A DNA stretch of 63,000 bases, filler included, from Candidatus Hydrogenedentota bacterium (lineage in GTDB: Bacteria; JBFMHD01), in the NCBI GenBank assembly GCA_040752395.1. It is 14 parts of 14 records of this genome, joined end to end, with 100 filler letters (N's around TTAATTAATTAA, not from the genome) between each part and the next. Parts side by side here need not be neighbours in the genome. Positions count along the whole stretch, not along the records: positions 1 to 18,111 come from JBFMHD010000026.1; positions 18,212 to 21,637 come from JBFMHD010000261.1; positions 21,738 to 25,149 come from JBFMHD010000262.1; positions 25,250 to 28,656 come from JBFMHD010000263.1; positions 28,757 to 32,150 come from JBFMHD010000264.1; positions 32,251 to 35,641 come from JBFMHD010000265.1; positions 35,742 to 39,109 come from JBFMHD010000266.1; positions 39,210 to 42,575 come from JBFMHD010000267.1; 6 more parts are not named here. One strand, written 5' to 3'. Positions 4,131 through 60,149 of this stretch are shown one piece after another. The translations under genes and the position numbers were made by a program. The notes under the pieces were generated by a model. It was not told where the DNA came from. It searched no databases and saw only the letters and a program-made list of their open reading frames with translations. Position 1 is the first letter of the stretch. Each line of letters opens with the position of its first letter.

Positions 4131-4222
4131 CTTTCCTCCTCTGAAAAACATTGTAACTCTAATGATATCAAGTAGAAGCAAGAAGCAAGATTACGGAATC
4201 CCACTGAAGACTGAGGGGATAC
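4131..4222 (-). repeat. Mosaic intergenic repeat copy (terminal SD module)
   Basis: Minus strand: TCTTGCTTCTTGCTTCTACTTGATATCATTAGAGTTACAATGTTTTTCAGAGGAGG. Confidence 0.9.
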
Positions 4223-4306
4223 CATTATTTTTTCAAAACGATTGACATTTACTTGTGTATCTTAATAATTAAGCAGAGCGATAATTTATAAACTGGATTA
4301 ATTTAA

Positions 4307-6814
4307 ATGAGAAACGAGAAAATAAAAATACTTTTTTGCTACATTATTACAGTGGCTATATTATATTACCCCGTTGTATTTATGGGACGTTCGCTTATAC
4401 CTTCACTCTATTATCCCTCACCTGTGATGGACTTAAATGATTTAAAAATGAGAAAAGTTTTATATGGTACCTTTTTAGTAGATTTACCTACACCTGTATA
4501 TTATGAAGAACCGACAAATAAAATAGTTGGTGATATGATAAAAAATGGTAAGGTACCGTTATGGGATCCCTATACAGGGTTGGGAGTACCTCTTGCTGCT
4601 CAATACAGTTCAAGAGCATTTTTTCCATATCAGATACTTGAGAATATCTCGCCTTACTTCTTATGGGATTACTTTATACTGTTTCGACTGGTTATCGCAG
4701 GTTTTTTTACTTATTTATTTTTAAGAAGACTCAATATCAATATTTTACCTGCTTTTATAACTGGTGTTATCTATCAATTTTCAGGTTCATTTACGTGGTT
4801 TATAAATCTTGAACAATTAGTAAATGTTGGGATGCTGGTCCCTGTTTTTCTTTTTACGATCCAGAGGTTATTACAGAAAAATACCATTAAAAATCAATTT
4901 ATACTCTCGTTTGTAATTGCTATGGTATTATACGCAGGTCAGCCAGAAACAGCTTTATATGTTTTGACACTTGGGTTTTTATATACAGGGTTTGGTTTAT
5001 GGCAAAGAAGTGGAGAAACAGGGATAGAAAAATGTATTTTAGGCCACGTATTATCATGGTTAATAGGTTTTATGTTTGCCTCTCCGCTTCTATTACCATT
5101 TTTAGAACTCGCTTTTGATTCACATCATCTTCATTTTTTTAAAGAAAAATTAGGATTACAGCATCTATCAGGATTCACTTATTTATTACATATATTATTA
5201 CCCGGGGTTAGTGTTGATTCAGGTTATTGCCTTTTATTCCCTTGTGCCATGGTCTGGGATTTCACTGGCAGTTATGTAAGTATTGCGGTATGGATTTTAA
5301 TCTTTGCTACTATATTTAAAAAGAATATTCTATACAAAAAAGAGTTAATTTTTTTTGTTGTTTGTGGTTTTATAATACTTTTTCAGAGACTTGGTATCCC
5401 ACCATTCAGATATATAGGGAATCTTCTGCTTTTCGACCTTGTTTTTGTTCCCAGATGGACATCTCCTGTATGGAGTCTTTGTTTTGCGCTTGGTGCTGGT
5501 TTGTGTCTTCATAATATTTCAGTTATATCCTTAAAAGATATTTTAGTTTCACTTTTAATATTTATTTTATTATTTATATCTTTGAATATTTATTTATCTA
5601 CTACTATTTTTGATGTTATTTGTGGATATCCTTTATATAAATATTCCTATCTTCAGAGTATAATTGTATTTTTATTTTTTATTTTTATGTTATTGTTGAT
5701 TTTTAAAAAAATTAACGACGTTAAAACCAGGCTTGTTTCCATCTTATTACTTATCCTTTTTGAACTATGGTTCTATATACCAAAGGGTTATGAGATGAAA
5801 TGGAATTATATTTTATTCATCCCGCTTATACTCGGATGGTCTACTCTGTTTATTATAGAAAATAGAAAAAAACAGCTATTTTTAATCCTGTCTGCTATAT
5901 TGAGTTATATTATTATCGAGTTAATTTCTCCTACTGGTTTACCACTAAGAAGGGACCCGTTCCCAATCTTAGCAAGTATAAATAAGATTAAAGAACTAGG
6001 ATATAGTAGAATTGTTGGGCTGGATAGAAGATTTATGCCAAATTATGCAGGAGCGTATCAATTATTTGATGTAAGATATATAAATGCCTTATCACCGATT
6101 GAATATCATAATTTCGCTAATTATAATCTTCTATCAAAGCCGTTAACTAAATATAATATTCTATGGTTTATAGGTGTTTCAGATTCAGATGTATCATTCT
6201 ATGAAGACTTTATAAAGAGGAAAAATATTTATTCCTGGCTTGGGGTAAAATATGTATTTTCATCCCCTTACTATAAATTTGACCTGCCTCTGATCTATAA
6301 AGACCCGTATACAATTATATATGAAAATAAAGAATATCATCCCAGGACTTACATTGTATTCGATACAGAAAAAGCTAATAATATCTACGAGGCACAGTTA
6401 AAAATTAATAATGACTTTGATTTTAGGAATAAAGCTATAGTTGAAAAAAATATAAAAATCAAGCCAGATGATAAGAAAGAAAGAAGATGGGAAGCAAATA
6501 TATTAAAATATGAACCCAACACCATTGAGATAGAAACTTTTTCATCTATCGATGGTCTTCTTGTGCTTACAGATTCATATTATAAAGGTTGGAAGGTTTT
6601 TGTAGATGGTAAAGAGAACGAGTTATTACGAGTTAATGGTCTGGTAAGGGGTGTGGTAGTGGCTGCGGGCAGACATAATGTAATTTTCAGATACATGCCA
6701 TTAACATTTAAAGCAGGGTGTGGGTTGCTGTTTGTTGGTTTATTGTTTTATACCGGCTGTTCTCTCACTTACAGAGAAAAAAAGTGGCAAGGAGCAAGAA
6801 ATGGCACAAATTAA
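4307..6814 (+). CDS. YfhO-like multi-TM protein (GT-C glycosyltransferase-like)
   Basis: PLWDPY..LGVP, many TM helices, C-terminal LVLTDSYYKGWKVFVDG...G.HNV.FRY.P. Confidence 0.75.
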   Translation: MRNEKIKILFCYIITVAILYYPVVFMGRSLIPSLYYPSPVMDLNDLKMRKVLYGTFLVDLPTPVYYEEPTNKIVGDMIKNGKVPLWDPYTGLGVPLAAQYSSRAFFPYQILENISPYFLWDYFILFRLVIAGFFTYLFLRRLNINILPAFITGVIYQFSGSFTWFINLEQLVNVGMLVPVFLFTIQRLLQKNTIKNQFILSFVIAMVLYAGQPETALYVLTLGFLYTGFGLWQRSGETGIEKCILGHVLSWLIGFMFASPLLLPFLELAFDSHHLHFFKEKLGLQHLSGFTYLLHILLPGVSVDSGYCLLFPCAMVWDFTGSYVSIAVWILIFATIFKKNILYKKELIFFVVCGFIILFQRLGIPPFRYIGNLLLFDLVFVPRWTSPVWSLCFALGAGLCLHNISVISLKDILVSLLIFILLFISLNIYLSTTIFDVICGYPLYKYSYLQSIIVFLFFIFMLLLIFKKINDVKTRLVSILLLILFELWFYIPKGYEMKWNYILFIPLILGWSTLFIIENRKKQLFLILSAILSYIIIELISPTGLPLRRDPFPILASINKIKELGYSRIVGLDRRFMPNYAGAYQLFDVRYINALSPIEYHNFANYNLLSKPLTKYNILWFIGVSDSDVSFYEDFIKRKNIYSWLGVKYVFSSPYYKFDLPLIYKDPYTIIYENKEYHPRTYIVFDTEKANNIYEAQLKINNDFDFRNKAIVEKNIKIKPDDKKERRWEANILKYEPNTIEIETFSSIDGLLVLTDSYYKGWKVFVDGKENELLRVNGLVRGVVVAAGRHNVIFRYMPLTFKAGCGLLFVGLLFYTGCSLTYREKKWQGARNGTN

Positions 6815-10430: not shown

Positions 10431-12050
10431 GTGACCTTTTTGAATTATAAAGAATTAATAAAAGAAAAAGAGAGAAGAGAAAATTTTAAAACCACATCAG
10501 GTATAGAACTTGATAGAATCTATCTACCCGATAAAAAATATGATTATCTTTCGAAACTTGGATTTCCAGGTGAGTATCCTTTTACCCGTGGCATACAACC
10601 AACAATGTATCGTGGAAAACTCTGGACAATGAGACAGTATGCAGGTTTCGGGACAGCAAGAGAATCGAATAAACGATATAAATTCCTTTTAGAAACAGGC
10701 CAGACAGGGGTATCTGTTGCATTTGATTTACCCACACAGATTGGTTATGATTCTGACCATCCTTTAAGCAGAGGCGAGGTGGGGAAAGTTGGGGTAGCTA
10801 TAGATTCATTAAATGATATGGAAATTTTATTTGATAATATACCACTTGATAAAGTTTCGACTTCTATGACAATAAATGCGCCGGCTTGTATATTGCTTGC
10901 AATGTATATTTGTGTTGGAAGAAAGCAGGGAGTAGATGAGAAAAAGTTGCAGGGTACCATACAGAACGATATATTAAAAGAGTATATCGCACGTGGTACA
11001 TATATATTTCCACCAAAACCATCAATGAGAATTATAACAGATATTTTTAAATACTCTTCTATTAATTTACCTTTGTTTAATACTATCTCGATCAGTGGTT
11101 ATCATATAAGAGAAGCAGGCTCAAATGCTGTTCAGGAGCTTGCGTTTACAATCGCTAACGGCATAACGTATGTTCAAGCAGCGATTGATGCAGACCTTGA
11201 TGTGGATGATTTTGCCCCGCGTTTATCTTTTTTCTTTAATGCTCATAACAATTTTTTAGAAGAGATAGCTAAATTTAGAGCAGCACGCAGAATCTGGGCT
11301 AAGATTATGAAAGAGAAATTTAAGGCTAAAAAACCGCGTTCGATGATGTTAAGGTTTCATACCCAAACTGCGGGTTCCACACTTACCGCTTCACAGCCTG
11401 ATAATAATATTATACGTATAACACTACAGGCTTTAGCTGCTGTTCTTGGTGGTACGCAGAGTTTACATACCAACTCAAAGGATGAGGCACTCTCATTACC
11501 TACAGAAGAATCAGTTAGAATAGCTTTGAGAACCCAGCAGATAATAGCCTATGAGAGCGGAGTAACTGATACGATTGATCCATTAGCAGGCGCCTATGCT
11601 CTCGAATACCTCACTGATGAAATAGAAAACAGAGTTTTTGAATATCTTAAAAAGATAGATTCAATGGGCGGTATGATAGAAGCTATTAAATCAGGCTATA
11701 TACAATCAGAGATCGCTGAATCTGCATATCGATACCAGAAAAGTATAGAGTCGAATGAGAAAAAAGTTGTTTCTGTGAATATCTTTACTGAAAAAGAAAA
11801 ACAAAAAACAGAAGTTTTAAAAGTCGATGAAAGTATAGAAAGAGAACAGATCAATAATCTAAAAAAGCTAAAAAAGAAACGAGATAATGCTCTTGTTAGA
11901 AACAGATTAAAAGCTCTTGAAAATATCGGCTCAAGTGATAATATAATGCCATTTATTATTGATGCTGTAAGTTCCTATGCTACAATAGGTGAGATATGTG
12001 ATGTTTTAAGAAAAGTTTTTGGAGAATATAAAGAAAGTATCAGGATATAA
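10431..12050 (+). CDS. Methylmalonyl-CoA mutase family, catalytic (large) subunit
   Basis: [42 protein letters not shown] and RFHTQT. Confidence 0.95.
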
Positions 12051-12057
12051 AAGAGAT

Positions 12058-12175
12058 AGGAGTCAACATAGACTTCAGATTGCAGACTACAGGCTCTTCA
12101 GGCTCCAGCCGGCTGTAGTCCGTAGCCTGTAGCCTGTACCCCGAATTATTAAAGTTGCGAAGTTTTTCAAAGGAG
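12058..12175 (+). repeat. Mosaic intergenic repeat copy bounded by AGGAG at both ends
   Basis: AGGAG-tcaac...GGCTCCAGCCGGCTGTAGTCCGTAGCCTGTAGCC...GTTTTTCAAAGGAG. Confidence 0.9.
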
Positions 12176-12180
12176 CTGTT

Positions 12181-12816
12181 ATGAAGAGATTTTGTTCGAT
12201 ACTATTATTAATATTATGTATTAGTTGTGTAGAAGAAGAAACCATAAAAAAAGAAGAGATTGGGCTTGAGAGATTTGTTAGCTATTTAGTTGACAATTAT
12301 AAAAACAGGAATGCCGAGGGTTTCTTAAAAGTTGTATCCCGTGATTTTTGCGGCGGTTTTAATGAATTTGAAAAAGATATAAGAGTGGATTTAGGACGTG
12401 TTGACCAGATTGAGATTGTTTATAATATAGATTCAGTGGAGTATTCTGGAAATGAGACACGATTGGAACTACGATGGCGAAAAAAATATCTTGAACGGAC
12501 TGATAGGGATTTTGATGGTATGCCTGATTTATGGGAGAGATACAATGGTTTAGATGAGAACGACCCGGCTGATGCATATAAAGATACAGATGGTGACGGT
12601 TTTACAAGTAGAGAGGAATTTCTATCTAATTCTGATCCGCTTGACCCAACAAGTGTGCCTGCAGGCACTGTTAATACAATACCTTCTCCTGTTAAACGTG
12701 AGTTTGCAGGGACGTCTTTTTTAATATTAATTAAAGAAGATAATGAGTATCAGCTTATAGCGCAGGAAGGCGATGTATTATTTGGTAATTCTGATAAACT
12801 TGAAGAAGGATTCTAA
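12181..12816 (+). CDS. Putative lipoprotein with Asp-rich (TSP3-like) Ca-binding loops
   Basis: Signal peptide ending CISC; DRDFDGMPDLWE and DTDGDGFTSREEF..SDPLDP. Confidence 0.6.
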   Translation: MKRFCSILLLILCISCVEEETIKKEEIGLERFVSYLVDNYKNRNAEGFLKVVSRDFCGGFNEFEKDIRVDLGRVDQIEIVYNIDSVEYSGNETRLELRWRKKYLERTDRDFDGMPDLWERYNGLDENDPADAYKDTDGDGFTSREEFLSNSDPLDPTSVPAGTVNTIPSPVKREFAGTSFLILIKEDNEYQLIAQEGDVLFGNSDKLEEGF

Positions 12817-12837
12817 AAAGAAGGTTAAATCCAAAAG

Positions 12838-13236
12838 ATGCAAAAGAGAAGAAAGAAGATTGTGATTGCGAAACCCGGATTAGATGGCCATGACCGTGGA
12901 GCAAAGGTCATAGCACGTGCTTTAAGAGACAAAGGTTATGATGTTTTGTATACAGGTATAAGAAAGGCGCCTGAAGAAATAATAAGAATTGTTATAGATG
13001 AAGATGCTGATTGTCTCGGCTTATCTTGTTTATCTGGTGCACATAAAGAATTATTTAAAAGGGTTATGGATATTCTTAAAAAAGAGAGAGTAAAGATACC
13101 AGTATTTGCAGGAGGCATTATACCAGAGGAGGATATAGAATATTTAAAAAGTATAGGTATAAACAGAGTGTTTGGACCAGGAACGAAAACAGATGATATT
13201 ATCTTATATGTGGATAAGTTATGGAAAAAGGCATAA
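12838..13236 (+). CDS. Cobalamin-binding (small) subunit of acyl-CoA mutase
   Basis: KPGLDGHDRGAK (DxHxxG), GLSCLSGAH and GGIIP. Confidence 0.93.
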   Translation: MQKRRKKIVIAKPGLDGHDRGAKVIARALRDKGYDVLYTGIRKAPEEIIRIVIDEDADCLGLSCLSGAHKELFKRVMDILKKERVKIPVFAGGIIPEEDIEYLKSIGINRVFGPGTKTDDIILYVDKLWKKA

Positions 13237-14087
13237 TAAAAAGATTAAAAAAGGGTGACAGAAAAGCGCTTGCAAAAATAATAACAGAGATCGAAAAAGA
13301 TTATAATAAGATACCTGAGATTTTTAAGAATGAAAAGTATGAATACCCTCTTATTTTAGGTATAACAGGGCCACCTGGCTCGGGTAAGAGCACTTTAATT
13401 GGTAAAATAATTAAACATTTAAAAGATATTAAAATAGCGATGTTTTTAATAGACCCATCAAGCAAGCTAAAACGCGGTGCTATTTTAGGTGATAGACTAA
13501 GGATAGAAGAGAAACCAGGGGATACGATTTATATCAGAAGTTTTTCAACAGGTAATACTACAAGCGGCTTATCATTTGTTCTGCCTGCGGTTTCTCGTTT
13601 GGTTAAATTGGCGGGTTATGATTTAATATTTATTGAGACTGTTGGCGCAGGCCAGATAGAAGATATAATATGCGATTTTGCTGATAAAACATATCTTGTA
13701 ATTCAGCCAGCAAGTGGTGATGAAATACAGGCTATTAAATCCGGCATAATCGAGAGAATAGAGGGTATTATTATTAATAAGAGTGATTTGAGTGGCGCTA
13801 TGAGTATGTATAATATTTTTAAAATGATATATAGTGATAAGTTCATTATTAACACAAGTGCAGAAAAAGAAGAAGGTATAGATAAATTTGCTTTGCAGAT
13901 TAGGAATGATTTAAAAGACAGGGTTAAATTAAAGAACAGAAAACAAAGAAAGTTATTTGAATTAAAATTTTATATAAGAGAAATGTTATTCCGCGAGATT
14001 GATAAAAAAATAAACATAAATTTAGTAGAAGACGATACGGATCCTCTAATAACAGCAAAAAAAATCGCCAAACATATGTTGCAGTGA
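13221..14087 (+). CDS. meaB: MeaB/ArgK-family GTPase metallochaperone
   Basis: GPPGSGKST, DPSS...GAILGDR.R, IETVGAGQ and INKSD; located next to mutase genes. Confidence 0.85.
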   Translation: MEKGIIKRLKKGDRKALAKIITEIEKDYNKIPEIFKNEKYEYPLILGITGPPGSGKSTLIGKIIKHLKDIKIAMFLIDPSSKLKRGAILGDRLRIEEKPGDTIYIRSFSTGNTTSGLSFVLPAVSRLVKLAGYDLIFIETVGAGQIEDIICDFADKTYLVIQPASGDEIQAIKSGIIERIEGIIINKSDLSGAMSMYNIFKMIYSDKFIINTSAEKEEGIDKFALQIRNDLKDRVKLKNRKQRKLFELKFYIREMLFREIDKKININLVEDDTDPLITAKKIAKHMLQ

Positions 14088-14088
14088 T

Positions 14089-14116
14089 TAAAGTTAATAT
14101 ATATTTATGTCGAATA
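14089..14116 (+). promoter_or_regulatory. Possible sigma28-type promoter
   Basis: TAAA-N16-GTCGAATA compared with consensus TAAA-N15/16-GCCGATAA. Confidence 0.35.
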
Positions 14117-14261
14117 ATTATATAGTATGTCTGCGATAGTTAAAAAGTTAAAGAGGATACAGGAAAAGCAGGAAAAAGACCTTCTTTGGTTACGGAAATA
14201 CCGCAAAAAAGAAAAATAAATATTAATTGACGAAAAAATAAAATAATGTAGAAATAGAAAA

Positions 14262-14315: not shown

Positions 14316-14323
14316 AGACGAAG

Positions 14324-14743: not shown

Positions 14744-14760
14744 TCAGGTTTTAGCTGGAG

Positions 14761-14868
14761 AGGAGTTGTCATAAGCACGGTTTGCGCTCTACACTATTGG
14801 GTTATTGGGTTATCTTGCTTCTTGCTTCTTGCTGGGATTATTATACTTACAATGTTTTTCAAGGGAGG
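14761..14868 (+). repeat. Mosaic intergenic repeat copy between rpsF and ssb
   Basis: AGGAG...GCGCTCTACACTATTGGGTTATTGGGTTATCTTGCTTCTTGCTTC...AATGTTTTTCAAGGGAGG. Confidence 0.9.
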
Positions 14869-14874
14869 AAAGTG

Positions 14875-15330
14875 ATGGCAAGGTTAGAATTAAACAGAGT
14901 AATTTTAGCAGGAAATCTTACTTATCCACCAGAATTAAAGTTTACAAAGAGCGGGTTACCAGTTACGACTTTTTCGATCGCGTTAAACAAGACATTTAAA
15001 AATCAGGCAGGCGAGACTAAAAAAAGTACTGATTTTGTTCGCGTTGTTGTCTGGGGGAAAACTGCTGAAAATTGTAAGTCTTATTTAGTAAAGGGGCAGC
15101 AGGTGCTCGTCGAAGGGAGCATTCGCTCAAGACAATGGGAAACCAAAGATGGTAAAAAAGCTTCTACAATTGAAATAGTGGCAAGCAGGGTTCATTTTCT
15201 TGATAAGCCGCGTAGTGATAAACAAGTTGAGATAGCAAAGGATGAGACCAAAGTTGAGGAAGAGGTATTTGCTGATGAAGAGGAGGCAGATATCCTTATA
15301 TCTGAATCTGAAGAAGAGGTCCCATTTTGA
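14875..15330 (+). CDS. ssb: Single-stranded DNA-binding protein
   Basis: LNRVILAGNLT..PELK.T, VWGK.AE, KGQQVLVEG and an acidic tail ending EEVPF; ATG at 14875. Confidence 0.97.
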   Translation: MARLELNRVILAGNLTYPPELKFTKSGLPVTTFSIALNKTFKNQAGETKKSTDFVRVVVWGKTAENCKSYLVKGQQVLVEGSIRSRQWETKDGKKASTIEIVASRVHFLDKPRSDKQVEIAKDETKVEEEVFADEEEADILISESEEEVPF

Positions 15331-15501
15331 AAAACTAAAGATGATATGAAAAGAGTCACAAGTCGCAAGTCGTGAGTCAAAACAGGACTCAAGACTCAAG
15401 ACTTTTCAGCAGGCTCCGGGCTTTTTGCTCCAGCCGGCTGTAGTCCGTAGCCCGTAGCCTGTACCCCGAATTATTAGAGTTACAGCGTTTTTCAGAGGAG
15501 G
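15328..15501 (+). repeat. Mosaic intergenic repeat copy between ssb and rpsR
   Basis: TGAAAAACTAAAGATGATATG, GAGTC/GACTC arms, GGCT/AGCC arms, terminal TTTTTCAGAGGAGG. Confidence 0.95.
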
Positions 15502-17004: not shown

Positions 17005-17246
17005 ATGAGCGTGGTTTGCGCTCTACACTATTGGGTTCTTGGGTTCTTGCGTTTTTGCGCTCTACACAAAGGATGAAAAACTAAAGATGATATAAAAAGA
17101 GTCGTGAGTCACAAGTCGCAAGTCGTGAGTCAAAACAGGACTCAAGACTCAAGACTTTTCAGCAGGCTTTTGGCTTTTGGCTCCAGCCGGCTGTAGTCCG
17201 TAGCCTGTAGCCCAAATTATTAGGGTTGCGAAGTTTTTCAGAGGAG
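17005..17246 (+). repeat. Mosaic intergenic repeat copy upstream of rplI
   Basis: Full module series ending GTTGCGAAGTTTTTCAGAGGAG. Confidence 0.95.
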
Positions 17247-17255: not shown

Positions 17256-17813
17256 ATGCAGGTTCTGCTAATTAAAGATTATTCTAATTTAGGGAGAGCT
17301 GGTGAAAGTTTGAAAGTGAAAGACGGGTATGCAAGAAATTTTCTCATACCAAGAAAAATAGCTGTTCCAGCTACAAAATCAAACATTAGAAAATATGAAG
17401 CTTTTATTAAAAAGATGGAAAAGATAAGGCAAAAAGAGATAAAGAGTTCAGAGGATTTAAAAACAAGGTTAGAGGGAATGAAGTTGTATTTTAAGGAGAA
17501 GGCTTCAGAAGAAGGGAGATTATTCGGGTCTGTAGGTGTGGCGCAGGTTGTTAGCCGCCTGAAAGAAGAGGGTATTGAACTCGATAAATATCAGGTTATA
17601 ATACCTGTTCATATAAAAGAAGCAGGTACGTATGCAGCAAGGATACGGCTTTATCATAATATCGAAGCCAATATCGAGATTGTTGTTGAAACAGAAAAAG
17701 AAGAAGCACCGCCTGAAGAACTTGCCTTTAAGCCAGAAACACCACAGATAAAAGAAGAACCACAACAACCTAAAGTTGATGATATGCAAAAGTATGAAAA
17801 AGATAGGAGTTAG
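17256..17813 (+). CDS. rplI: 50S ribosomal protein L9 with a C-terminal extension
   Basis: MQVLLIKD..NLG..GE...VKDGYARNFLIP and GRLFGSV. Confidence 0.97.
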   Translation: MQVLLIKDYSNLGRAGESLKVKDGYARNFLIPRKIAVPATKSNIRKYEAFIKKMEKIRQKEIKSSEDLKTRLEGMKLYFKEKASEEGRLFGSVGVAQVVSRLKEEGIELDKYQVIIPVHIKEAGTYAARIRLYHNIEANIEIVVETEKEEAPPEELAFKPETPQIKEEPQQPKVDDMQKYEKDRS

Positions 17814-18111
17814 GAGTTCGTAATAATAGATACGAGCTCCGAGCTCCGAACTCCGAACTTTTTCGAAGGAGTCAACATGAGCGCGGGTTGCGCTCTACAC
17901 TATTGGGTTCTTGGGTTATTGCGTTTTTGCGCTCTACACAACGTATGAAAAACTGAAGATGATATGAAAAGAGTCGTGAGTCAAAACAGGACTCGAGACT
18001 CAAGACTCAAGACTCAAGACTTTTCAGCAGGCTTTTGGCTTTTTGCTCCAGCCGGCTGTAGTCCGTAGCCTGTAGCCTGTAGCCCGTCCTGACACCTCTC
18101 ACTTCTTCCGT
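17793..18111 (+). repeat. Mosaic intergenic repeat copy, truncated by contig end
   Basis: GGAGTT/AACTCC arms, GAAGGAG-tcaacATGAGCGCG module, GAGTC/GACTC arms, GGCT/AGCC arms. Confidence 0.95.
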
Positions 18112-21528: not shown

Positions 21529-21637
21529 TCCTCCTCTGAAAAACATTGTAACTATAATAATATCAAGTAGAAGCAAGAGGCAAGAAGCAAGATAACGGAA
21601 AGAAAGATAACGAAAGAAGCAAGAGGCAAGAAGCAAG
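21529..21637 (-). repeat. Mosaic repeat copy upstream of serA, at contig end
   Basis: CTTCTTG-type 7-mers ending ATGTTTTTCAGAGGAGG on the minus strand. Confidence 0.93.
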
Positions 21638-25302: not shown

Positions 25303-25573
25303 AAAGATTGAAAGATTCAAAGATTCAAAGGAAAGGCACAGAGGCACAAAGGCACAAAGGCACAAAGTATGAAAAGAGTCGTGAGTCGCAAGTCGTGAGT
25401 CAAAACAGGACTCAAGACTCAAGACTCAAGACTTTTCAGCAGGCTTTTGGCTTTTTGCTCCAGCCGGCTGTAGTCCGTAGCCTGTAGCCTGTCCTGATAC
25501 CTCTCACTTCTTCCGTTATCTTGCTTCTTGCTTCTACTTGATATTATTATAATTACAATGTTTTTCAGAGGAG
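25303..25573 (+). repeat. Mosaic intergenic repeat copy
   Basis: GATTCAAA and GGCACAAA 8-mers, then GAGTC/GACTC, GGCT/AGCC and CTTCTTG modules, terminal TTTTTCAGAGGAG. Confidence 0.95.
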
Positions 25574-28551: not shown

Positions 28552-28656
28552 TCCTCCTCTGAAAAACTTCGCAACTCTAATAATTCGGGCTACAGGCTAC
28601 GGACTACAGCCGGCTGGAGCAAAAAGCCAAAAGCCTGCTGAAAAGTCTTGAGTCTT
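28552..28656 (-). repeat. Mosaic repeat copy upstream of ssnA, at contig end
   Basis: Minus strand ends ATTATTAGAGTTGCGAAGTTTTTCAGAGGAGG-attt-ATG. Confidence 0.93.
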
Positions 28657-32250: not shown

Positions 32251-32510
32251 GCAAGATAACGGAAAGAAAGATAACGAAAGAGGCAAGAAGCAAGAGGCAA
32301 GAAAACGTCTGAATCTGGTTTTTCAGGCTTTGTGTAGCGGTGCAACGCACCGCATGATGACTCCTCTGAAAAACATTGTAACTATAATAATTCGGGCTAC
32401 AGGCTACGGACTACAGCCGTCTGGAGCCAAAAGCCCAAAGCCTGAAGCCAACATATCATCTTTAGTTTTTCATACTTTGTGCCTTTGTGCCTCTGTGCCT
32501 CTTGCTTCTA
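32251..32510 (-). repeat. Mosaic repeat copy overlapping the 3' end of a membrane-protein gene
   Basis: GGCACAAA arms, GGCT/AGCC arms, internal TTTTTCAGAGGAG-tcatcATG, GCGGTGC/GCACCGC hairpin. Confidence 0.9.
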
Positions 32511-33777
32511 TATTATATATCCCAAAAACAAAACTTACAAGCATAAAAATTCTTATAGGCATATAATATCGTGGCACTGGATGGAATGGTAAATGAAAGA
32601 TTGCAAAATATAGATACAATATCAATATCATTACAGAAATTTTTTGTATGTTGTTTCCCAATTCTACACTTCTTAATCCAATAAATACGCCATAGACCGA
32701 AAATACTACTATTATTACCTGATAAAACCTTAATAAAAAATCAAAGATTTTATTAAATGGTAAAGTTTTTATATAAAGTTCGCTGCCTGGATAATCCATC
32801 CAGAACCAGAAATTAAGCTTAAAGAATCTATATAAAACTATAAATGGATGTTTTATTGTATAATCAATCGCATATTTTAGATATGCGTCTTCTTTCTCTT
32901 CAAATGTATTATATTTACTATTTATTTCACTCAATACAGGCGAGATATCTTTTTTATAAGAGATATCATATTCTGAAAACCTGCCATCACCATCCCATAA
33001 AACAGATTCAAGTATCAAACTTTTGTTAGAGGTTTTTCTTAAAATAAAGGCACCTGTGTCTGAATAAATAGCAAGAAGATATAATCCGAGAAATAAATAA
33101 GATAAAATAATATAAAAAACTTTTTTATCTTTATAGAAGATATAATAGAAAAAAACAAAAAAAAGGGGAAAAATTGCCATAACAGGTGCTGTGATTAGGC
33201 ACATACCGAGCAAAGAAATAGAAGCAAGAAGCAAAAGGCAAGAAGCAAGATAAGTTCTTTGTTCTGTTTTGGGGATTAAAAGAAAGAAATATACAAATAA
33301 GCCTAGATAAATCATAAGACCACTCTCTTTAAATAAATTCACAGCAAACATAATATTAAAAGGATCTATTGAACAGATTATACCAGCAGGTAAAATAAAT
33401 TTATGAGGTAAAAGAGAGATTAATAAAACCACCAAAAGGCTTTGTAAAATAGCTTGATAAATAAAAACCGCAATGGCTCTCCAATTATAAATAGCATAAT
33501 TACTCAGATTTTCGCCTTTCATATTATTCGTTATTTTAACTATATCAGCATTAATAAACATAGGGATTAAAAATATAGGGTAACCTGGCATCTGAGAATA
33601 GTAAGGTTCCTGAGAGATTAGGTCTTTTAGTCCTTTTAAGTTTGCTAATGACATAGCAGCAACCGTATAACTTGAACCATCTGTTATGACTCTAAGGTTT
33701 AAAGTAAATGGGATAAATATAACCCTTAATATTAAAGCTAAAACAAAGATTAATAATAATTTCTTTTTTTTATCCAT
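32470..33777 (-). CDS. ArnT/PMT-like multi-TM glycosyltransferase
   Basis: LALILR...DGSSY...A.SL...MPGYP.FL N-terminus; C-terminal PRYYMP. Confidence 0.65.
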   Translation of the reverse strand: MDKKKKLLLIFVLALILRVIFIPFTLNLRVITDGSSYTVAAMSLANLKGLKDLISQEPYYSQMPGYPIFLIPMFINADIVKITNNMKGENLSNYAIYNWRAIAVFIYQAILQSLLVVLLISLLPHKFILPAGIICSIDPFNIMFAVNLFKESGLMIYLGLFVYFFLLIPKTEQRTYLASCLLLLASISLLGMCLITAPVMAIFPLFFVFFYYIFYKDKKVFYIILSYLFLGLYLLAIYSDTGAFILRKTSNKSLILESVLWDGDGRFSEYDISYKKDISPVLSEINSKYNTFEEKEDAYLKYAIDYTIKHPFIVLYRFFKLNFWFWMDYPGSELYIKTLPFNKIFDFLLRFYQVIIVVFSVYGVFIGLRSVELGNNIQKISVMILILYLYFAIFHLPFHPVPRYYMPIRIFMLVSFVFGIYNIEARGTEAQRHKV

Positions 33778-33805: not shown

Positions 33806-34138
33806 AGAAAGATAACGAAAGAAGCAAGAAGTAGTGAGGGTCTTTAGACCCGTAGTAGACTGAGGGGATATCAAGAAGCAAGAAGCAAGATAACGGAAGA
33901 AGTGAGAGGTGTCAGGACGGGCTACAGGCTACGGGCTACGGACTACAGCCAGCTGGAGCCAAAAGCCCAGAGCCTGAAGCCAACATATCATCCTTAGTTT
34001 TTCATATATTGTGTAGAGCGCAAACCGCGCTCATGAGTACTCCTCGGAAAAAGTTCGGAGTTCGGAGCTCGGAGCTCGTATCTATTATTACGAACTCCTA
34101 ACTCCTATCTTTCCCCTACTTTGTGCCTTTGTGCCTTT
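33806..34138 (-). repeat. Mosaic repeat copy
   Basis: GGCACAAA, GGAGTT/AACTCC, GAGCGC hairpin, GGCT/AGCC and CTTCTTG modules. Confidence 0.93.
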
Positions 34139-39209: not shown

Positions 39210-39417
39210 GATATGAAAAGAGTCACAAGTCGCAAGTCGTGAGTCAAAACAGGACTCGAGACTCAAGACTCAAGACTTTTCAGCAGGCTTTGGGCTTTTG
39301 GCTCCAGCCGGCTGTAGTCCGTAGCCTGTAGCCTGTCCTGATACCTCTCACTTCTTCCGTTATCTTGCTTCTTGCTTCTACTTGATATTATTATAGTTAC
39401 AATGTTTTTCAGAGGAG
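39210..39417 (+). repeat. Mosaic repeat copy upstream of leuD, at contig start
   Basis: GAGTC/GACTC, GGCT/AGCC and CTTCTTG modules; terminal TTTTTCAGAGGAG. Confidence 0.95.
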
Positions 39418-40884: not shown

Positions 40885-41239
40885 GTAGAAGCAAGAAACA
40901 AGATGCAAGAGGCAAGATATTGTTTCTTATCAGAGGAGTACTCAAGAGCGCGGTTTGCGCTCTACACTATTGGGTTATTGCGTTCTCGCACTCTACACAA
41001 CGTATGAAAAACCAGATGTTTGTTTATCTTGCTTGCCTCTTGCTTCTACTTGATATTATTATAGTTACAATGTTTTTCAGAGGAGTCAACATGAGCGCGT
41101 TTGCGCTCTACACAATATATGAAAAACTAAAGATGATATGTTGGCTTCAGGCTCCGGGCTTCGGGCTCCAGCCGGCTGTAGTCCGTAGCCTGTAGCCTGT
41201 AGCCCAAATTATTAGGGTTGCGAAGTTTTTCAGAGGAGG
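40885..41239 (+). repeat. Composite (nested and tandem) mosaic repeat copy
   Basis: GTAGAAGCAAGA...TCTTGCTTCTAC IR enclosing another module; three CAGAGGAG junctions. Confidence 0.95.
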
Positions 41240-42164: not shown

Positions 42165-42575
42165 AAAAAACCGAAAAACCGGGAAAACCGGAAAACCAGG
42201 AAAACCGGGACGGTTCTGGTTTTTCTTGTTTCTGCATTTCGCATTCTTACTGATACTTCTCACTTCCCACTTCTTACTTCTTACTTTTTCGAAGGAGTAC
42301 TCATGAGCGCGGGTTGCGCTATACACTATTGGGTTCTTGGGTTCTTGCGTTTTTGCGCTTTACACAATATATGAAAAACTAAAGATGATATGAAAAGAGT
42401 CGTGAGTCAAAACAAGACTCAAGACTTTTTAGCAGGCTTTGGGCTTCGGGCTCCAGCCGGCTGTAGTCCGTAGCCTGTAGCCTGTAGCCCGTCCTGATAC
42501 CTCTCACTTCTTCCGTTATCTTGCTTCTTGCTTCTACTTGATATCATTAGAGTTACAATGTTTTTCAGAGGAGGA
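42165..42575 (+). repeat. Long mosaic repeat copy, at contig end
   Basis: AAAACCGG units, CTTCTTA 7-mers, GAAGGAG-tactcATG module, all core modules, ends CAGAGGAGGA. Confidence 0.95.
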
Positions 42576-52552: not shown

Positions 52553-52964
52553 CTTGACCCCCATTATTAAAATAGTTTAATTAATATACACTATACTTTC
52601 GCACATTTTACCTTGAAAAAATAAAAAGCCCCCGTATAATATTGACTACAATTAAATAATCAACACTATACCGAGGAAACTTCAATGTTTACTACACAGC
52701 AAAGTATACAACCACCAAAGAATTTTGACAAGTATTCAAATCACTAATTAATTTTTGATAGTTTATATCACTTCCCTGTGAACCATAAAAAATTAGAATC
52801 ATTATTTAATACCTTGAAAATGGCTGCTTAAATGAAATCCATTGACTTATTTTCTGCTAAAGTANNNNNNNNNNNNNNNNNNNNNNNNNNNNNNNNNNNN
52901 NNNNNNNNTTAATTAATTAANNNNNNNNNNNNNNNNNNNNNNNNNNNNNNNNNNNNNNNNNNNN

Positions 52965-53240
52965 TTATGTTTCTACCTTTAAACGGGGCTGGCAGTTTGC
53001 TTGAGATTGACGAGCAGTTACGGTTACCATGGGTACAGAAATATTTTGGTGGTAGAGTATCAGATACGCATATGGTGCGAGTATTAAGTGGGCTCAAAGC
53101 CAATGGGATTCGTGGTATGAATTACCGGATGTGTATAGCAGGCAATTACACCTATCAACTTGGGAATAAACATTAATACCGAGCAACTCTTTTATTATCA
53201 GCCCCTGTTTTCTGAAAAAGTCTAATTTTTTCACACCTTC
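52965..53240 (+). mobile_element. Degenerate IS remnant (transposase-like fragment plus right end)
   Basis: SLLEIDEQLR...SDTHMVRVL resembles DDE transposase N-terminal regions; ends TTTCACACCTTC-TGA-GGGAATAC like the MITE at 49734. Confidence 0.55.
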
Positions 53241-53250
53241 TGAGGGAATA

Positions 53251-56200
53251 CTAATTTATCTCAATCTCTGCAGGTAACTTATCAAACGACACTTCACTCT
53301 CTGAAAAATTTTTCCATTCCCTGTTATTAATTTTTACTTTATTGATTTTCTTTTTTAAAAAAGGTGATTTTAATACAAAACCCTTATCAGGTTTTGCATC
53401 ACCTGTTATAATAATTTTTAATTTTTCATCCTCTTTTGTAACAGAATAACTTATCTTTCCAAAATAGGTTGGCATATTCTTTACTGAAACACCTTCTTTT
53501 CTCTCAAGCCATTCTTCATCAATCCCAGCACCTAAAATTAATGACTCATCTTTTTCAAATACAAACAAACTTATCGCAGTGTTTATGTATCCAGAACCAA
53601 CCCAGGTATGAGGCATATCACCGATATAACAGCCTTGTCTGGGAGGACTATAAACTACTTCTGCCCAATGGTTCCAGTTCGTGGGTCTCCGACAGCTTAA
53701 AAGAAACTTTATTAACTTTAATGCTTTTTCCTTCTGGTTCATAAAAAGAAAAGCCTGGACAGAGCGGATCTCATAAGGAGTAAAACCTCCTTTCCAGTCA
53801 GGCTCTAATCTCTTTAATACATCATCAAAATATTTATCAAATGTCCTTTTAAGTTGAACTTGTGGTAAATATTCAAGTTCACCACAACACATAACTGCTA
53901 TAGCAGTTGATGTCGCATCAAAATCGCCAAGCTCAGCACAACCAGGGATATAATCAATTTTTTTATTCTTCATTACATATTTTATTGAATTATATACAGA
54001 TTCCCTCAGTTCCTGCTCTTCCTTATTTATCCAATCCAATAAATCATCCCTACCCAAAATTTCAGCAATTTGTCTTGCATCCTTCCAGCCTTTTAACGCC
54101 CAAAAATCGTCCCAGTAAGAATGCTTACCCGGTTCTGGATAATAACCCTCATGACTTACTGAGTTGGGCAATATTCCATAAAGTTCCGGGTTATTTTTAT
54201 ATTCATCTGTTAGTCGCATATCCCTTAAATATTCAAGATATTTTAATACCTGAATTACAACAGGTAATTTCTCTTCTAGGAAATTTTTATCTTTTGTAAA
54301 GTAATAGTAATTAAGAATAGCAAATATAAGTTGGCCCTGACTATCATACTCTTTAACAGGATTTATTTCGTTATTACGGTTAATAATAACAATAGCAGGG
54401 ACTCTACCATCTTTATAAAGAAATTTGGAATACCAGTCAATATATTCCTTAATTTCTTTTGTAAAACCCATTCTTAAAAGAGCCAGAGCAGTCATAGTTC
54501 CATCTCTCATCCAGGCTGCCTCATAACATCTTGAGCCAGGTTGGATTGCCGGTCCATCTTTGTTAATTAAAATATAGGCAAGATTTGCTTTTAATGTATT
54601 CACTATATCAGTATCCGGAATATTTATTTCAATCTTATTTAATTTTGTTTCCCAGAACTTTATAGTTTCGTTCAGCATCTTATTTATCTGGGAAAAATCT
54701 TTTATCACAGATGAATTTTCATATAAAGGAATGGCAACAAAAAAATCTTTCTTTGCATCTGGATTTAATTCATATTTATATTCCAATGTACCTGAGGCAT
54801 ATCCATTTTTATCCTGCATACTCTTTTTTTCTGGTAGATTGCCTTTTTCTATACTATAAACTATATCACGATCTTTAAAATTGCAACAACCAAATTCAAA
54901 TCCTTCAGTTAAAGGATATATTTTAAATTTATCAACTTCTATAATATTTTTTTCTGTATATTTGATATTATAAATCTTATGTAATCCACCCCATTGCCAT
55001 GGAGGATTTATTTCAAATGGACGAACTGTTAAAAAAAGTTTACCTTTAATACTTTTTTTACTTTTATTTTCAATTTTATACAATATATATATAGTTGATT
55101 CACCAGGCTTCCCATAAGCAAACGGTTTGATGTTCATAATAATATCTTTATATTTCCACTGAACAGTAGGAACTGGTATATAATCTTTCTCAAGTGATTG
55201 AGATAACTCTACATCTGCCCAGGTAATAAGTTTATTGTCTATATACAAAAATGGAATTATAGAAAAACTTTTATAAGGTTCCAGAGAGCCGTCCTCACAA
55301 AAAAGGCTTTCTTTAAAATCTTCATCCATACCAACAACAGTCCAGAAGCCCTGCTCTTTATACACCCATCGTGGAAAATAACCTTTTGGAGATTCAATAG
55401 CGGAAGTTTCATAATATTTCTGGGTTGTTAAAAATTCATCTGGGCCTTTAAGAGTAATCTCTTTTAGTCCATATCCTTTTTTATTTGCACTTTCTTTCAA
55501 TTCAATTTTAATAAATTGAACGGGTATTTTATCAATATATATCATATCGCATTCGCCATTTCCATTTGATATGGAATAAACTTTGCTCCATTCTTTTCTA
55601 TTGTTTGATGCCCATATCTCATAAGTCCTGGCAAAACTTTCGTTCCAGTATAAAAACAAGCCCCCGATTTCTTTTATCTTCCGCAAATCAACTTCTATCC
55701 ATTGAATCTCTTCTGGTTTGGTTATCCATTCTGTTTTCATATCTCCATCAAATATATTCTCTGGCTTATTGTCTTCTAAAAATGAAGAAGCGCTTATAAC
55801 AGGTTGCTCTTCTGGATATTTCAAAACTACTTCCCATAATGAATAACCCCAGCCTGTGCCTCTCTCTTTTCCATATATTTTTATATACCTCGCCTTTCTT
55901 TTTTTAAAATAAATATCATCTGTGCAACCATCACCGTCTGTTGTACTATAAACTGTTTCCCAATTTTTGCCATCACTGGAAAGTGAAATCTCATAAGATT
56001 TTCCATAAGCAGTTTCCCAGAATAAGGTTAAACCTATCATTTCTTTTATTTCACCAAAATCAATTTCAAGCCACTGGTCATCAGAAAATTGACTGGACCA
56101 TCTTGTTTGCTTATTATTATCGACTGCGTACTCTGCTTTATGTGCTTCTTCCTGAATAGAAGATGCTTTAGCTGTTATTTTAAAACCGGCAGCTACTTCT

Positions 56201-59420: not shown

Positions 59421-59469
59421 TGGAAAGTATCCCGGACATCGTATACCCCTTAAAGAGGTATACGATGTC
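59421..59469. repeat. REP-like palindrome; 27-bp inverted copy at 62262-62288
   Basis: GACATCGTATACC-N9-GGTATACGATGTC, a perfect 13-bp stem. Confidence 0.75.
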
Positions 59470-59758
59470 TGTAAACTTCCCGTTTTAAAAAATATTTTTT
59501 CTTGACTATAAATATTTTTAAGTTTAAAATTATACTTTAGCAGAAAATAAGTCAATGGATTTCATTTAAGCAGCCATTTTCAAGGTATTAAATAATGATT
59601 CTAATTTTTTATGGTTCACAGGGAAGTGATATAAACTATCAAAAATTAATTAGTGATNNNNNNNNNNNNNNNNNNNNNNNNNNNNNNNNNNNNNNNNNNN
59701 NTTAATTAATTAANNNNNNNNNNNNNNNNNNNNNNNNNNNNNNNNNNNNNNNNNNNNT

Positions 59759-59908
59759 TATAGTGGTTATTTTTTTGGCAATATTCCTTTTGTAAAAAGA
59801 CATTTTAGTTTAGTTATTCTTATGATAGTTTTTATATCCATTCTGCCAGGTATTATAGAATATATCCGTCATCGCGGGTCGCGCTCTACACAACGTATGA
59901 AAAACTAA
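59759..59908 (+). CDS. dedA: DedA-family protein, 3' fragment
   Basis: GYFFGNIPFVKRHFSLVILMIVFISILPGIIEY; the last codons lie in the repeat. Confidence 0.75.
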   Translation, partial: YSGYFFGNIPFVKRHFSLVILMIVFISILPGIIEYIRHRGSRSTQRMKN

Positions 59909-60149
59909 AGATGATATGAAAAGAGTCGTGAGTCGCAAGTCGTGAGTCAAAACAGGACTCGAGACTCAAGACTCAAGACTTTTCAGCAGGCTCCGGGCTT
60001 CGGGCTCCAGCCGGCTGTAGTCCGTAGCCTGTAGCCCGTCCTGATACCTCTCACTTCCCACTTCTTACTTCTTACTTTTTTCGTTATCTTGCATCTTGCT
60101 TCTTGCTTCTACTTGATATTATTATAGTTACAGCGTTTTTCAGAGGAGG
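59874..60149 (+). repeat. Mosaic repeat copy upstream of nupC
   Basis: All core modules, ending TTACAGCGTTTTTCAGAGGAGG. Confidence 0.95.

What the first reader, a model, noticed from the sequence alone, without database searches (positions are those of the whole stretch)
4131..60149. Dispersed mosaic repeat family supplying the ribosome-binding site of 12 unrelated genes
Seen: about 20 intergenic loci share modules, and most end in a conserved cap of about 30 nt (ATTATTARRGTTRCRANGTTTTTCAGAGGAG). Its GGAG sits 4-10 nt before the start codon of hicB (4127), a lipoprotein (12181), ssb (14875), rpsR (15509), rplI (17256), serA (21522), an aminotransferase (25582), ssnA (28548), mdh (29988), leuD (39424), a hypothetical gene (41249) and nupC (60155). 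Two more caps are cut at contig ends (21746, 42575). At all 12 genes the cap points into the gene, on either strand. Inference: a non-autonomous mobile or gene-conversion element that lands at translation-initiation regions and stays harmless by bringing its own SD, or a portable structured 5' leader. It does not look like CRISPR, REP or a MITE with terminal IRs, and no candidate mobiliser is in this window.
Basis: partly seen in the sequence, partly recalled or inferred. Interest (0 to 1): 0.9.

Follow-up and report, generated by a model that had tools for sequence, protein, structure and literature searches.

The report
Mosaic intergenic repeats carrying ribosome-binding sites
An uncultured bacterium has filled many gaps between its genes with building-block repeats whose constant last piece supplies the ribosome-binding site of about a fifth of the genes seen, a denser and more modular version of a rare kind of repeat already known from Neisseria and mycobacteria.

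Summary
The window is 14 short contigs of a fragmented draft genome (GC 34%). It holds 16 copies of a 31-nt cap ending in GTTTTTCAGAGGAG; none is expected by chance. Twelve caps end 5-10 nt before the start codon of Pfam-supported, functionally unrelated genes, always pointing into the gene. Two lie at contig ends and two are internal. The caps close 70-350-nt arrays of 7-8-nt tandem units that form imperfect hairpins. The 18 arrays make up 6% of the DNA. Arrays run from the upstream gene's stop codon, sometimes supplying it, to the downstream gene's Shine-Dalgarno. They avoid convergent gaps. Copies are near-identical, none is decayed, and cap haplotypes are recombinant. I found no terminal inverted repeats around arrays, no transposase, no Rfam, plasmid or phage match, and no close relative. 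One mis-binned contig elsewhere carries the same array. My best reading is a recombination-spread, co-transcribed "stop-to-start" spacer repeat that carries a standard ribosome-binding site. Transcription and mobility are not shown. Precedents exist: Neisseria REP2, Borrelia IR, MIRU and TAACTGA heptamers. I rate it a new variant of a known kind.

The parts
4134..4221 (-). Short array (CU-rich heptamers) plus cap 4136-4166; 8 nt to the hicB GTG at 4127. The only array in a divergent gap.
12101..12175 (+). Array (M4 hairpin) plus cap 12145-12175; 5 nt to the lipoprotein ATG at 12181. Starts right after the mutase stop codon.
14778..14867 (+). Array (M1, heptamers) plus diverged cap 14837-14867; 7 nt to the ssb ATG at 14875.
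15328..15500 (+). Array M2-M3-M4 plus cap 15470-15500; 8 nt to the rpsR ATG at 15509. The ssb TGA stop (15328-15330) lies inside module M2.
17013..17246 (+). Array M1-M2-M3-M4 plus cap 17216-17246; 9 nt to the rplI ATG at 17256.
17793..18111 (+). Array M0-M1-M2-M3-M4-M5 cut by the contig end. The rplI TAG stop (17811-17813) lies inside module M0.
21531..21637 (-). Heptamer array plus cap 21531-21561; 8 nt to the 2-hydroxyacid dehydrogenase ATG at 21522. Runs to the contig end.
21745..21962 (-). Array M3-M4-M5 plus cap 21749-21779, 11 nt from the contig end. Begins at most 12 nt after the pyrG stop.
25303..25573 (+). Array (octamers, M3, M4, M5) plus cap 25543-25573; 8 nt to the aminotransferase ATG at 25582.
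28554..28656 (-). Array (M3 end, M4) plus cap 28554-28584; 5 nt to the amidohydrolase ATG at 28548. Cut by the contig end.
28757..28969 (-). Array M1-M2-M3-M4 downstream of mdh, same orientation, cut by the contig end.
29997..30124 (-). Array (octamers, M0-like, CU heptamers) plus cap 29997-30027; 8 nt to the mdh ATG at 29988. Starts about 8 nt after the S1 gene stop.
32251..32513 (-). Array with internal cap 32361-32391, followed by an M1-like module and heptamers up to the contig end. The TGA stop of the 435-aa ORF (32470-32472) lies inside M2.
33857..34138 (-). Array M0-M1-M2-M4-M5 without a cap, ending about 80 nt before the ATG at 33777.
39210..39417 (+). Array M3-M4-M5 (starts at the contig end) plus cap 39387-39417; 6 nt to the leuD ATG at 39424.
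40887..41238 (+). Double array: a sub-element with heptamer inverted arms (40885-40916 / 41032-41049), internal cap 41055-41085, then M1-M2-M4 plus cap 41208-41238; 10 nt to the ATG at 41249.
42258..42575 (+). Full array (heptamers, M1, M2, M3, M4, M5) plus cap 42543-42573, 2 nt from the contig end.
59881..60148 (+). Array M1-M2-M3-M4-M5 plus cap 60118-60148; 6 nt to the nupC ATG at 60155.

Best explanation
This is a very abundant family of non-coding, modular intergenic repeats that act as ready-made 'stop-to-start' spacers. Each array is a chain of modules built from 7- or 8-nt tandem units, and complementary runs of these units form imperfect hairpins with a 7-nt period. Arrays sit between genes in the orientation of the gene that follows. 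At their 5' edge they begin at, or a few bases after, the upstream stop codon. One module has stop codons in all three frames. At their 3' edge they end in an almost invariant AU/U-rich 31-nt cap whose GGAG(G) serves as the Shine-Dalgarno of the next gene. I infer that the arrays are transcribed as the 5' leader or intercistronic part of the mRNA. I also infer that the family has spread and is kept uniform by recombination or gene conversion between copies, plus slippage of the short units, rather than by cut-and-paste transposition. The SD (GGAGG) and the stop/T-rich edges would act as the anchors that selection tolerates. Shown: the sequences, positions, polarity, mosaicism and hairpin potential. 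Inferred: transcription, use of the cap as the RBS, and the mode of spread.
For: There are 16 caps, and 12 lie 5-10 nt before native starts of unrelated genes, all pointing into the gene. Arrays occupy 7 of 16 co-directional gaps of 60 nt or more, 1 of 1 divergent and 0 of 3 convergent. Three arrays lie inside the universally conserved rpsF-ssb-rpsR...rplI cluster (conservation of this cluster is recalled), so they must be intercistronic and the assembly across them is credible. The stop codons of ssb and of the 435-aa ORF lie inside module M2, which has stops in three frames, and the rplI stop lies inside M0. No frame stays open across an array, and indels shift the frame between copies, so arrays are not coding. 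Whole arrays fold better than shuffles on the gene strand (z -2.6 and -2.7) and not on the opposite strand (z -1.1). The M4 hairpin is more stable on the gene strand in 11 of 13 copies (mean -4.0 kcal/mol) through G-U pairs, and its variation is C-G to U-G on one side. Cap scores are bimodal with no decayed copies, and all four combinations of two variable cap sites occur, so copies recombine. Cap type is associated with the preceding module but not fixed to it. There are no terminal inverted repeats around whole arrays and no transposase in 58 ORFs. The same array plus cap, 9 nt before an ATG, occurs on an independently assembled contig (L001, 96% over 92 nt).
Against: There is no RNA evidence at all: no sequencing run was listed. 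No compensatory base changes occur in the M4 hairpin (0 of 23 pairs), so RNA-level selection rests only on the G-U asymmetry, which mutation bias or sense-strand DNA hairpins could also produce. M3 shows only a weak strand bias: 6 of 8 real copies, with small differences. No empty site was seen, so neither insertion nor conversion is demonstrated. Only 62 kb of the genome could be examined, and no mobiliser can be excluded elsewhere. One array upstream of a gene lacks a cap (33857-34138). The CU-rich and octamer units also occur in the opposite orientation next to starts (35411, 35057, 61505) and inside a CDS (33219-33253), so strict polarity holds only for cap-bearing arrays. Cap SDs are predicted to be more base-paired than other SDs (mean unpaired probability 0.28 against 0.57), which points to regulation rather than mere harmlessness.
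Confidence: 0.5

Rival explanations
1. The cap, or cap plus CU-rich heptamers, is a shared cis-regulatory leader. One trans-acting factor (an RNA-binding protein such as S1, CsrA or Csp, or an antisense sRNA), or temperature, controls translation of all capped genes as a regulon. This would resemble Neisseria REP2/CREN genes, which are co-regulated. In this reading the repeat is maintained by selection for co-regulation.
For: The last 14 nt are identical in 13 of 16 caps and abut the SD. Cap SDs are predicted to be more sequestered than SDs of 10 other genes (0.28 against 0.57, Mann-Whitney p 0.016, copies not independent). The pairing partner is often the upstream CU-rich heptamer run, whose copy number varies. 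REP2 provides the precedent (PMC3184786 section 11).
Against: The capped genes have no common function: ribosomal proteins, ssb, mdh, an antitoxin, a transporter and a lipoprotein. No anti-cap sequence or candidate regulator lies in the window. Two caps precede only another repeat module. The predicted SD pairing is weak (5-6 bp with G-U) and differs between copies.
Confidence: 0.2
2. The family is a classical non-autonomous transposon (MITE or IS-derived), moved in trans by a transposase encoded elsewhere in the genome. It would have a strong target preference for, or survival only at, the space just upstream of start codons, as proposed for MIRUs.
For: Copy number is high, copies are near-identical and none is decayed. 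One sub-element has 18-nt inverted arms (40885-40902 / 41032-41049). Module M1 starts with an SD-ATG, like the remnant of a transposase gene start. The MIRU precedent applies (PMC12548453 passage).
Against: There are no terminal inverted repeats or flanking direct repeats around whole arrays. The 5' ends and module content vary from copy to copy. Cap haplotypes are recombinant. No transposase is found in 58 ORFs, though only 62 kb were seen.
Confidence: 0.12
3. The arrays are portable terminator-promoter-RBS cassettes. M0 and M3 hairpins followed by T runs would end the upstream transcript. The cap's TACAAT would act as a -10 box, giving a very short leader with the SD.
For: M0 is a hairpin directly followed by TTTTT, and M3 has an A-tract, stem and TTTT layout. 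The common cap type carries TACAAT 14-15 nt before the GGAG. REP2 and Correia elements carry promoters (PMC3184786 passages).
Against: No acceptable -35 lies at 16-19 nt: at best 3 of 6 matches, at a spacer of 20 nt (my own reading of the cap and the 31 nt before it). The consensus scan found no promoter at any of the four caps in 12000-18111. Six of 16 caps have GCGAA or ACAGC in place of ACAAT, which destroys the -10. Arrays sit inside the rpsF-ssb-rpsR operon, where termination would be harmful.
Confidence: 0.08
4. The pattern is an assembly or binning artefact: repeats collapsed or contigs wrongly joined, so the apparent repeat-gene junctions are not real.
For: The genome is highly fragmented and 8 of 27 contig ends fall in arrays. 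No reads could be examined.
Against: Each cap-gene junction is only 31 nt plus unique sequence, well within one read. Seven arrays are flanked by unique sequence on both sides within contigs. Gene order across three arrays matches the conserved rpsF-ssb-rpsR-rplI order. An independent assembly has the same array-cap-ATG layout.
Confidence: 0.03

Closest known systems
Neisseria REP2 (CREN) repeats and the similar Borrelia plasmid IR sequences
   Same: Both are dispersed intergenic repeats without terminal inverted repeats and with internal stem-loops. Both lie immediately upstream of unrelated ORFs and supply their ribosome-binding site and 5' UTR (PMC3184786, sections 11-12 read).
   Different: REP2 is a single unit of 120-150 bp with about 26 copies per genome. 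It carries a promoter and the ATG itself, and its genes are co-regulated. Here the element is a variable mosaic of heptamer-hairpin modules and ends at the SD, so the start codon is gene-specific. No conserved promoter is evident. The density is about 16 caps per 62 kb, and the host lineage is unrelated. Sequence similarity was not tested.
Mycobacterial interspersed repetitive units (MIRU)
   Same: Both are intercistronic repeats inside operons, transcribed with the operon. Both sit at start codons in the gene's orientation and overlap the neighbouring genes' stop and start, so insertion disturbs expression little (PMC3184786 section 9; PMC12548453 passage).
   Different: MIRUs are tandem units of 40-100 bp that contain a small ORF coupled to the downstream gene by a 4-nt overlap. 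Here no ORF is conserved, and the link to the downstream gene is an SD, not coupling.
TAACTGA heptamer direct repeats of marine Beggiatoaceae, and cyanobacterial STRR heptamers
   Same: Both are tandem 7-nt units in intergenic DNA. In Beggiatoaceae most lie within a few nucleotides upstream of start codons of unrelated genes, including ribosomal protein genes, and a post-transcriptional role is proposed (PMC4679880 abstract and section 13). The STRR comparison is recalled, not read.
   Different: Those consist of one heptamer in simple direct arrays, usually replace a canonical SD, and form no hairpins. Here there are many different heptamers and octamers in complementary runs, plus a non-repetitive cap with a canonical SD.
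Pneumococcal BOX elements and E. coli BIMEs
   Same: Both have a modular build from a few box types with variable copy number. Both are intergenic, transcribed, form hairpins and affect neighbouring gene expression (PMC3184786 section 7 passages; BIME details recalled).
   Different: BOX and BIME show no fixed position relative to start codons and no SD. REP/BIME favour 3' ends and convergent gaps, which these arrays avoid (0 of 3).

Membership tests
REP2/CREN-type RBS-bearing leader repeat | Dispersed repeat immediately upstream of unrelated ORFs, in their orientation | tested here: met
   12 of 16 caps lie 5-10 nt before gene starts, and all point into the gene.
REP2/CREN-type RBS-bearing leader repeat | The repeat contains the ribosome-binding site | tested here: met
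   The cap ends in GGAG or GGAGG at SD distance. Function is not assayed.
REP2/CREN-type RBS-bearing leader repeat | The repeat contains the ATG fused to the ORF | tested here: not met
   Homology stops at GGAG(G). The 5-10 nt spacer and the start codon (ATG or GTG) are gene-specific.
REP2/CREN-type RBS-bearing leader repeat | The repeat contains a promoter | tested here: inconclusive
   TACAAT is present in 10 of 16 caps, but there is no -35 and no scan hit. No transcript data are available.
REP2/CREN-type RBS-bearing leader repeat | Sequence homology to Neisseria REP2 | not tested
   No REP2 sequence was available from a tool. Rfam gave no match.
MITE | Terminal inverted repeats at both ends of the element | tested here: not met
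   Only internal hairpins were found in 4 arrays. One internal sub-element has 18-nt arms.
MITE | Target-site duplications, and empty sites in relatives | not testable with these tools
   No close relative is available: best PyrG 68% and mutase 73%. No genome is held for the window.
REP/REPIN with RAYT | Short GC-rich palindromes, mostly at 3' ends, with a RAYT transposase in the genome | tested here: not met
   Arrays are polar, lie 5' of genes and are absent from 3 convergent gaps. No Y1 transposase is found in 58 ORFs, but the genome was not searchable.
MIRU | A small ORF in the repeat overlapping the stop and start of the flanking genes | tested here: not met
   Upstream stops do lie in modules M2 and M0. 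However, no open frame reaches the downstream start.
STRR / heptamer tandem repeats | Intergenic tandem arrays of 7-nt units | tested here: met
   TRF lists many period-7 and period-8 arrays inside the loci. This is a descriptive class, not a homologous family.
CRISPR | Identical repeats separated by unique spacers of constant length | tested here: not met
   Modules abut one another, and no regular repeat-spacer pattern exists.

The most novel reading that the evidence does not exclude
A whole genome may have standardised a large share of its intergenic space with one combinatorial kit. Heptad-periodic hairpin modules would supply the stop for the gene before and an invariant translation-initiation cap for the gene after. 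The kit would spread by gene conversion anchored on the SD, and a single trans-acting factor, or SD pairing with the copy-number-variable CU-rich heptamers, would read it out. Hundreds of unrelated genes, including ribosomal protein genes, would then share one tunable translational switch.
Probability: 0.15. Interest if true: 0.85.

Novelty: new variant of a known kind. Interest (0 to 1): 0.6.

Why it matters
If the picture holds genome-wide, about one gene in five in this uncultured, deep-branching bacterium (PyrG closest to Candidatus Omnitrophota at 58-60%) starts behind the same 14-nt translation-initiation sequence, delivered by a repeat. That would be by far the densest case of a repeat family taking over ribosome-binding sites. 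It would serve as a natural experiment on how interchangeable intergenic 'parts' (stop, hairpins, RBS) evolve and spread without a transposase. It would also explain in practice why such genomes assemble into 3-kb pieces. The heptamer hairpins and the cap are simple enough to test in reporter constructs.

Tried and rejected
**Whole genome and earlier findings**
- No whole genome is held for the window.

**Scans of public collections**
- That locus's genome, G001, has no other copy. Its S1 protein is 35% and its PyrG 56% identical to the window's.
- In the 24 other genomes of G001's phylum, 0 carry the cap 14-mer and PyrG is 53-56% identical. I conclude the contig is mis-binned, and no relative could be reached.
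- Metagenome contigs: cap pattern 0 hits, M4 core 0 hits.
- Viral contigs: M4 core 0 hits. The cap 22-mer gave 1 chance match inside a coding region.
- blastn of a full array against plasmids and phages gave no match.
- Rfam at gathering threshold on the window found only a tRNA. At the E-value threshold on one contig it found only sub-threshold miRNA-like noise.

**Sequencing runs**
- The tool was busy four times. It then answered that no run, and no RNA holder, was listed.

**Other tests**
- A protein search with an antisense array ORF, meant to catch arrays mis-called as genes elsewhere, gave no candidate.
- Coding reading: rejected, because stops occur in all frames and indels shift the frame.
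- Promoter reading: the scan found nothing at the caps.
- Covariation in M4: none.
- 'The cap keeps the SD free': not supported. Of the 12 comparison genes I picked, 10 could be scored.
- Regex search for M3: 2 of 10 hits (5339, 54741) were spurious and dropped.

**Literature**
- Searches found precedents but no description of this family.
- Supplements were not consulted.


Full report
**What the window is**

The 63,000 bases are not one stretch of chromosome. Twenty-six N runs form 13 spacers that join 14 contigs. The first is 18,111 bp, and the rest run from about 3.4 kb down to 3.2 kb. GC is 34%. No whole genome is held for the window.

The nearest relatives in the large protein collection are distant. 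Methylmalonyl-CoA mutase reaches 73%. PyrG reaches 68% to one unnamed contig and 58-60% to proteins named Candidatus Omnitrophota. The host is therefore an uncultured, deep-branching bacterium. The Omnitrophota label is only a lead.

The terminal 14-mer reveals one more diverged copy before ssb, and a similar motif at the end of another module. A profile built from the 16 caps finds exactly these 16 at 29-38 bits; the next hit scores 7 bits. The family has no decayed members in this DNA.

Twelve caps end 5-10 nt before a start codon. The lipoprotein has only a sub-threshold hit and ORF 41249 has none. Eight of these caps are on the + strand and four on the - strand, and all point into the gene. 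The chance of 12 or more of 16 randomly placed sites lying 5-10 nt before one of 54 starts is about 2e-28.

Each is followed after 5 nt by ATG, but that ATG opens another repeat module, not a gene.

**Anatomy**

The caps close arrays of 70-350 nt. I count 18 arrays totalling 3,731 nt. That is 6.0% of the non-N sequence, at 44% GC against 34% overall.

Read in the direction of the downstream gene, a full array has this order:
- Optional octamer runs (unit AAAGGCAC).
- M0, a hairpin of TAGGAGT and CGARCTC units followed by TTTTT and an SD-like GAAGGAG.
- M1, which begins with ATG and contains a 6-bp GC hairpin and TTGGGTT units.
- M2, a 23-nt AT-rich linker.
- M3, a hairpin of GAGTCGY against GACTCAA units.
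- M4, a hairpin of GGCTYYK against GTAGCCY units around a palindromic core.
- M5, a CU-rich run ending in CTTGCTT units.
- The cap.

Tandem Repeats Finder lists dozens of period-7 and period-8 runs at these loci. Arrays differ in which modules they hold and in how many units each module has. The cap follows M5 in 9 copies and an M5-like heptamer run before ssb in one more, and it follows M4 directly in 6. No reading frame stays open through an array on either strand, and indels change the frame between copies, so the arrays are not coding.

**Position rules**

Arrays occupy 7 of 16 co-directional gaps of 60 nt or more, the single divergent gap, and none of 3 convergent gaps of that size. Wherever both neighbours are visible, cap-bearing arrays are co-oriented with the downstream gene. 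Three arrays lie inside the rpsF-ssb-rpsR-(DUF2232)-rplI cluster, whose order is conserved across bacteria (recalled). This shows that arrays can be intercistronic, and it argues that the assembly across them is right.

At the 5' side, arrays often begin at the upstream stop codon:
- The TGA of ssb lies inside M2, just after an intact acidic ...PF tail, which is typical of SSB (recalled).
- The TGA of a 435-aa membrane protein also lies inside M2.
- The TAG of rplI lies inside M0.
- The arrays after the mutase gene and after pyrG start within 0-12 nt of the stop.

M2 carries stop codons in all three frames. Many arrays thus run exactly from stop to SD.

**Structure**

Two full arrays fold better than dinucleotide shuffles on the gene strand (z -2.63 and -2.66). 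The reverse strand of one of them does not (z -1.08). For M4, the gene strand is more stable in 11 of 13 copies, by 4.0 kcal/mol on average, because of G-U pairs. For M3 the bias is slight: 6 of 8 real copies, after 2 of 10 regex hits were dropped as spurious.

In an alignment of 14 M4 copies, 93% of cells pair, against 19-50% with slid partners. All variation is one-sided (C-G to U-G or to a mismatch), and no pair shows a compensatory change. The hairpins are real as inverted repeats. That they act as RNA is suggested only by the strand asymmetry.

**The cap**

The last 14 nt are identical in 13 of 16 copies. The first 17 nt are AU-rich and fall into a few haplotypes. Two variable sites show all four combinations (T or G at position 8 with ACAAT or ACAGC at 13-17), so copies have recombined within 31 nt.

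A promoter inside the cap is unlikely to be the common function. TACAAT is present in 10 of 16 caps but is replaced in 6. No -35 lies at a usable distance, and the consensus scan found nothing at the four caps it covered.

Cap SDs are predicted to be more base-paired than the SDs of other genes. The mean unpaired probability is 0.28 for 12 cap genes against 0.57 for the 10 of 12 comparison genes that could be scored, with 60 nt of leader. The partner is often the CU-rich heptamer run of M5. The copies are not independent and the helices are weak, so this is a lead towards regulation, not a result.

**Searches elsewhere**

One contig of another assembly (L001, 2,198 bp) carries M1-M2-M4-cap at 96% identity, and its cap ends 9 nt before an ATG. 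The genome it is binned with has no other copy and is unrelated, as is its whole phylum of 25 genomes. I conclude the contig is mis-binned.

JGI metagenome contigs, viral contigs, plasmids, phages and Rfam gave nothing. No sequencing run was listed. No transposase or other mobiliser appears among the 58 ORFs scanned. Whole arrays have no terminal inverted repeats. One internal sub-element does have 18-nt heptamer arms.

**Interpretation**

Recombinant haplotypes, mosaic module content, variable unit numbers, the lack of decayed copies and the lack of transposon ends favour spread and homogenisation by recombination or gene conversion and slippage. Edges would be tolerated only where a stop and an SD are restored.

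I put this at about 0.5. The rivals are:
- a shared regulatory leader (0.2);
- a transposase-driven element whose mobiliser lies outside the window (0.12);
- a terminator-promoter-RBS cassette (0.08);
- an assembly artefact (0.03).

Transcription, RBS use and mode of spread are all inferred.

**Comparison with what is known**

The idea is not new. Neisseria REP2 repeats and similar Borrelia plasmid sequences lack terminal inverted repeats, have internal stem-loops, sit immediately upstream of unrelated ORFs and bring a promoter, RBS and ATG (PMC3184786, sections 11-12 read). MIRUs sit at start codons inside operons and overlap the neighbouring genes' stop and start (PMC3184786 section 9; PMC12548453, one passage). 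TAACTGA heptamer repeats lie just upstream of start codons in Beggiatoaceae (PMC4679880, abstract and section 13). BOX elements are modular (PMC3184786 passages).

The present family differs from each of these. It is a mosaic of heptad-periodic hairpins, it ends at the SD rather than at the ATG, it also supplies stops, and it is far denser (16 caps in 62 kb). My literature searches found no description of it. I therefore rate it a new variant of a known kind, with interest 0.6.

Noticed in passing
window 33219-33253 and 32470-32513 (- strand ORF 32470-33777): A CU-rich heptamer run lies in frame inside a 435-aa polytopic membrane protein, where it reads ...LASCLLLLAS.... The protein's last ~13 residues plus its stop are encoded by array modules, so the repeats also reach into coding sequence.
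   Followed up: partly
window 35411, 35057, 61505 (gene starts): Purine-rich, reverse-oriented heptamers (AGAAGCA units) and octamers abut three further start codons, and at 35411 they give an AGAGG at SD distance. These units therefore occur in both orientations next to genes, unlike the cap.
   Followed up: partly
window 35981-36021: A cap-like but clearly diverged sequence (ATTATTAGAT...CCGGAGGAG) lies upstream of the TPR protein gene at 36022. The cap profile did not score it.
   Followed up: partly
window 52740-52864 and 59533-59657: Two contig ends share 125 nt as exact inverted copies. This is probably an assembly-graph overlap, meaning the two contigs are adjacent.
   Followed up: no
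window 61927-62018 and 62909-63000; 59421-59447 and 62262-62288: A 92-nt exact direct repeat copies the 3' part of a Mut7-C RNase gene to a site just after a Phd/YafQ-like toxin-antitoxin pair. A 27-nt inverted pair links this contig to the previous one.
   Followed up: no
window 49797-49834, 53215-53251, and upstream of 38365: A different repeated motif (...TTCTGAGGGAATACA), with an adjacent inverted partner at 49723-49758, occurs on contigs that lack the mosaic arrays.
   Followed up: no
window 12181-12816: A 211-aa lipoprotein-like gene preceded by an array sits between the methylmalonyl-CoA mutase large subunit gene and its B12-binding subunit and MeaB genes.
   Followed up: no
L001 108-290: On the mis-binned contig, the cap is followed by a 23-codon hydrophobic small ORF whose stop overlaps the ATG of an ORF of more than 661 aa.
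   Followed up: no
window 42167-42208: Five copies of the octamer AAAACCGG lie just upstream of the array at 42258. This unit type was not seen elsewhere in the window.
   Followed up: no
window 40261-40333: A tRNA gene lies between the thioredoxin gene and a response-regulator gene. It is the only Rfam match in the window.
   Followed up: no
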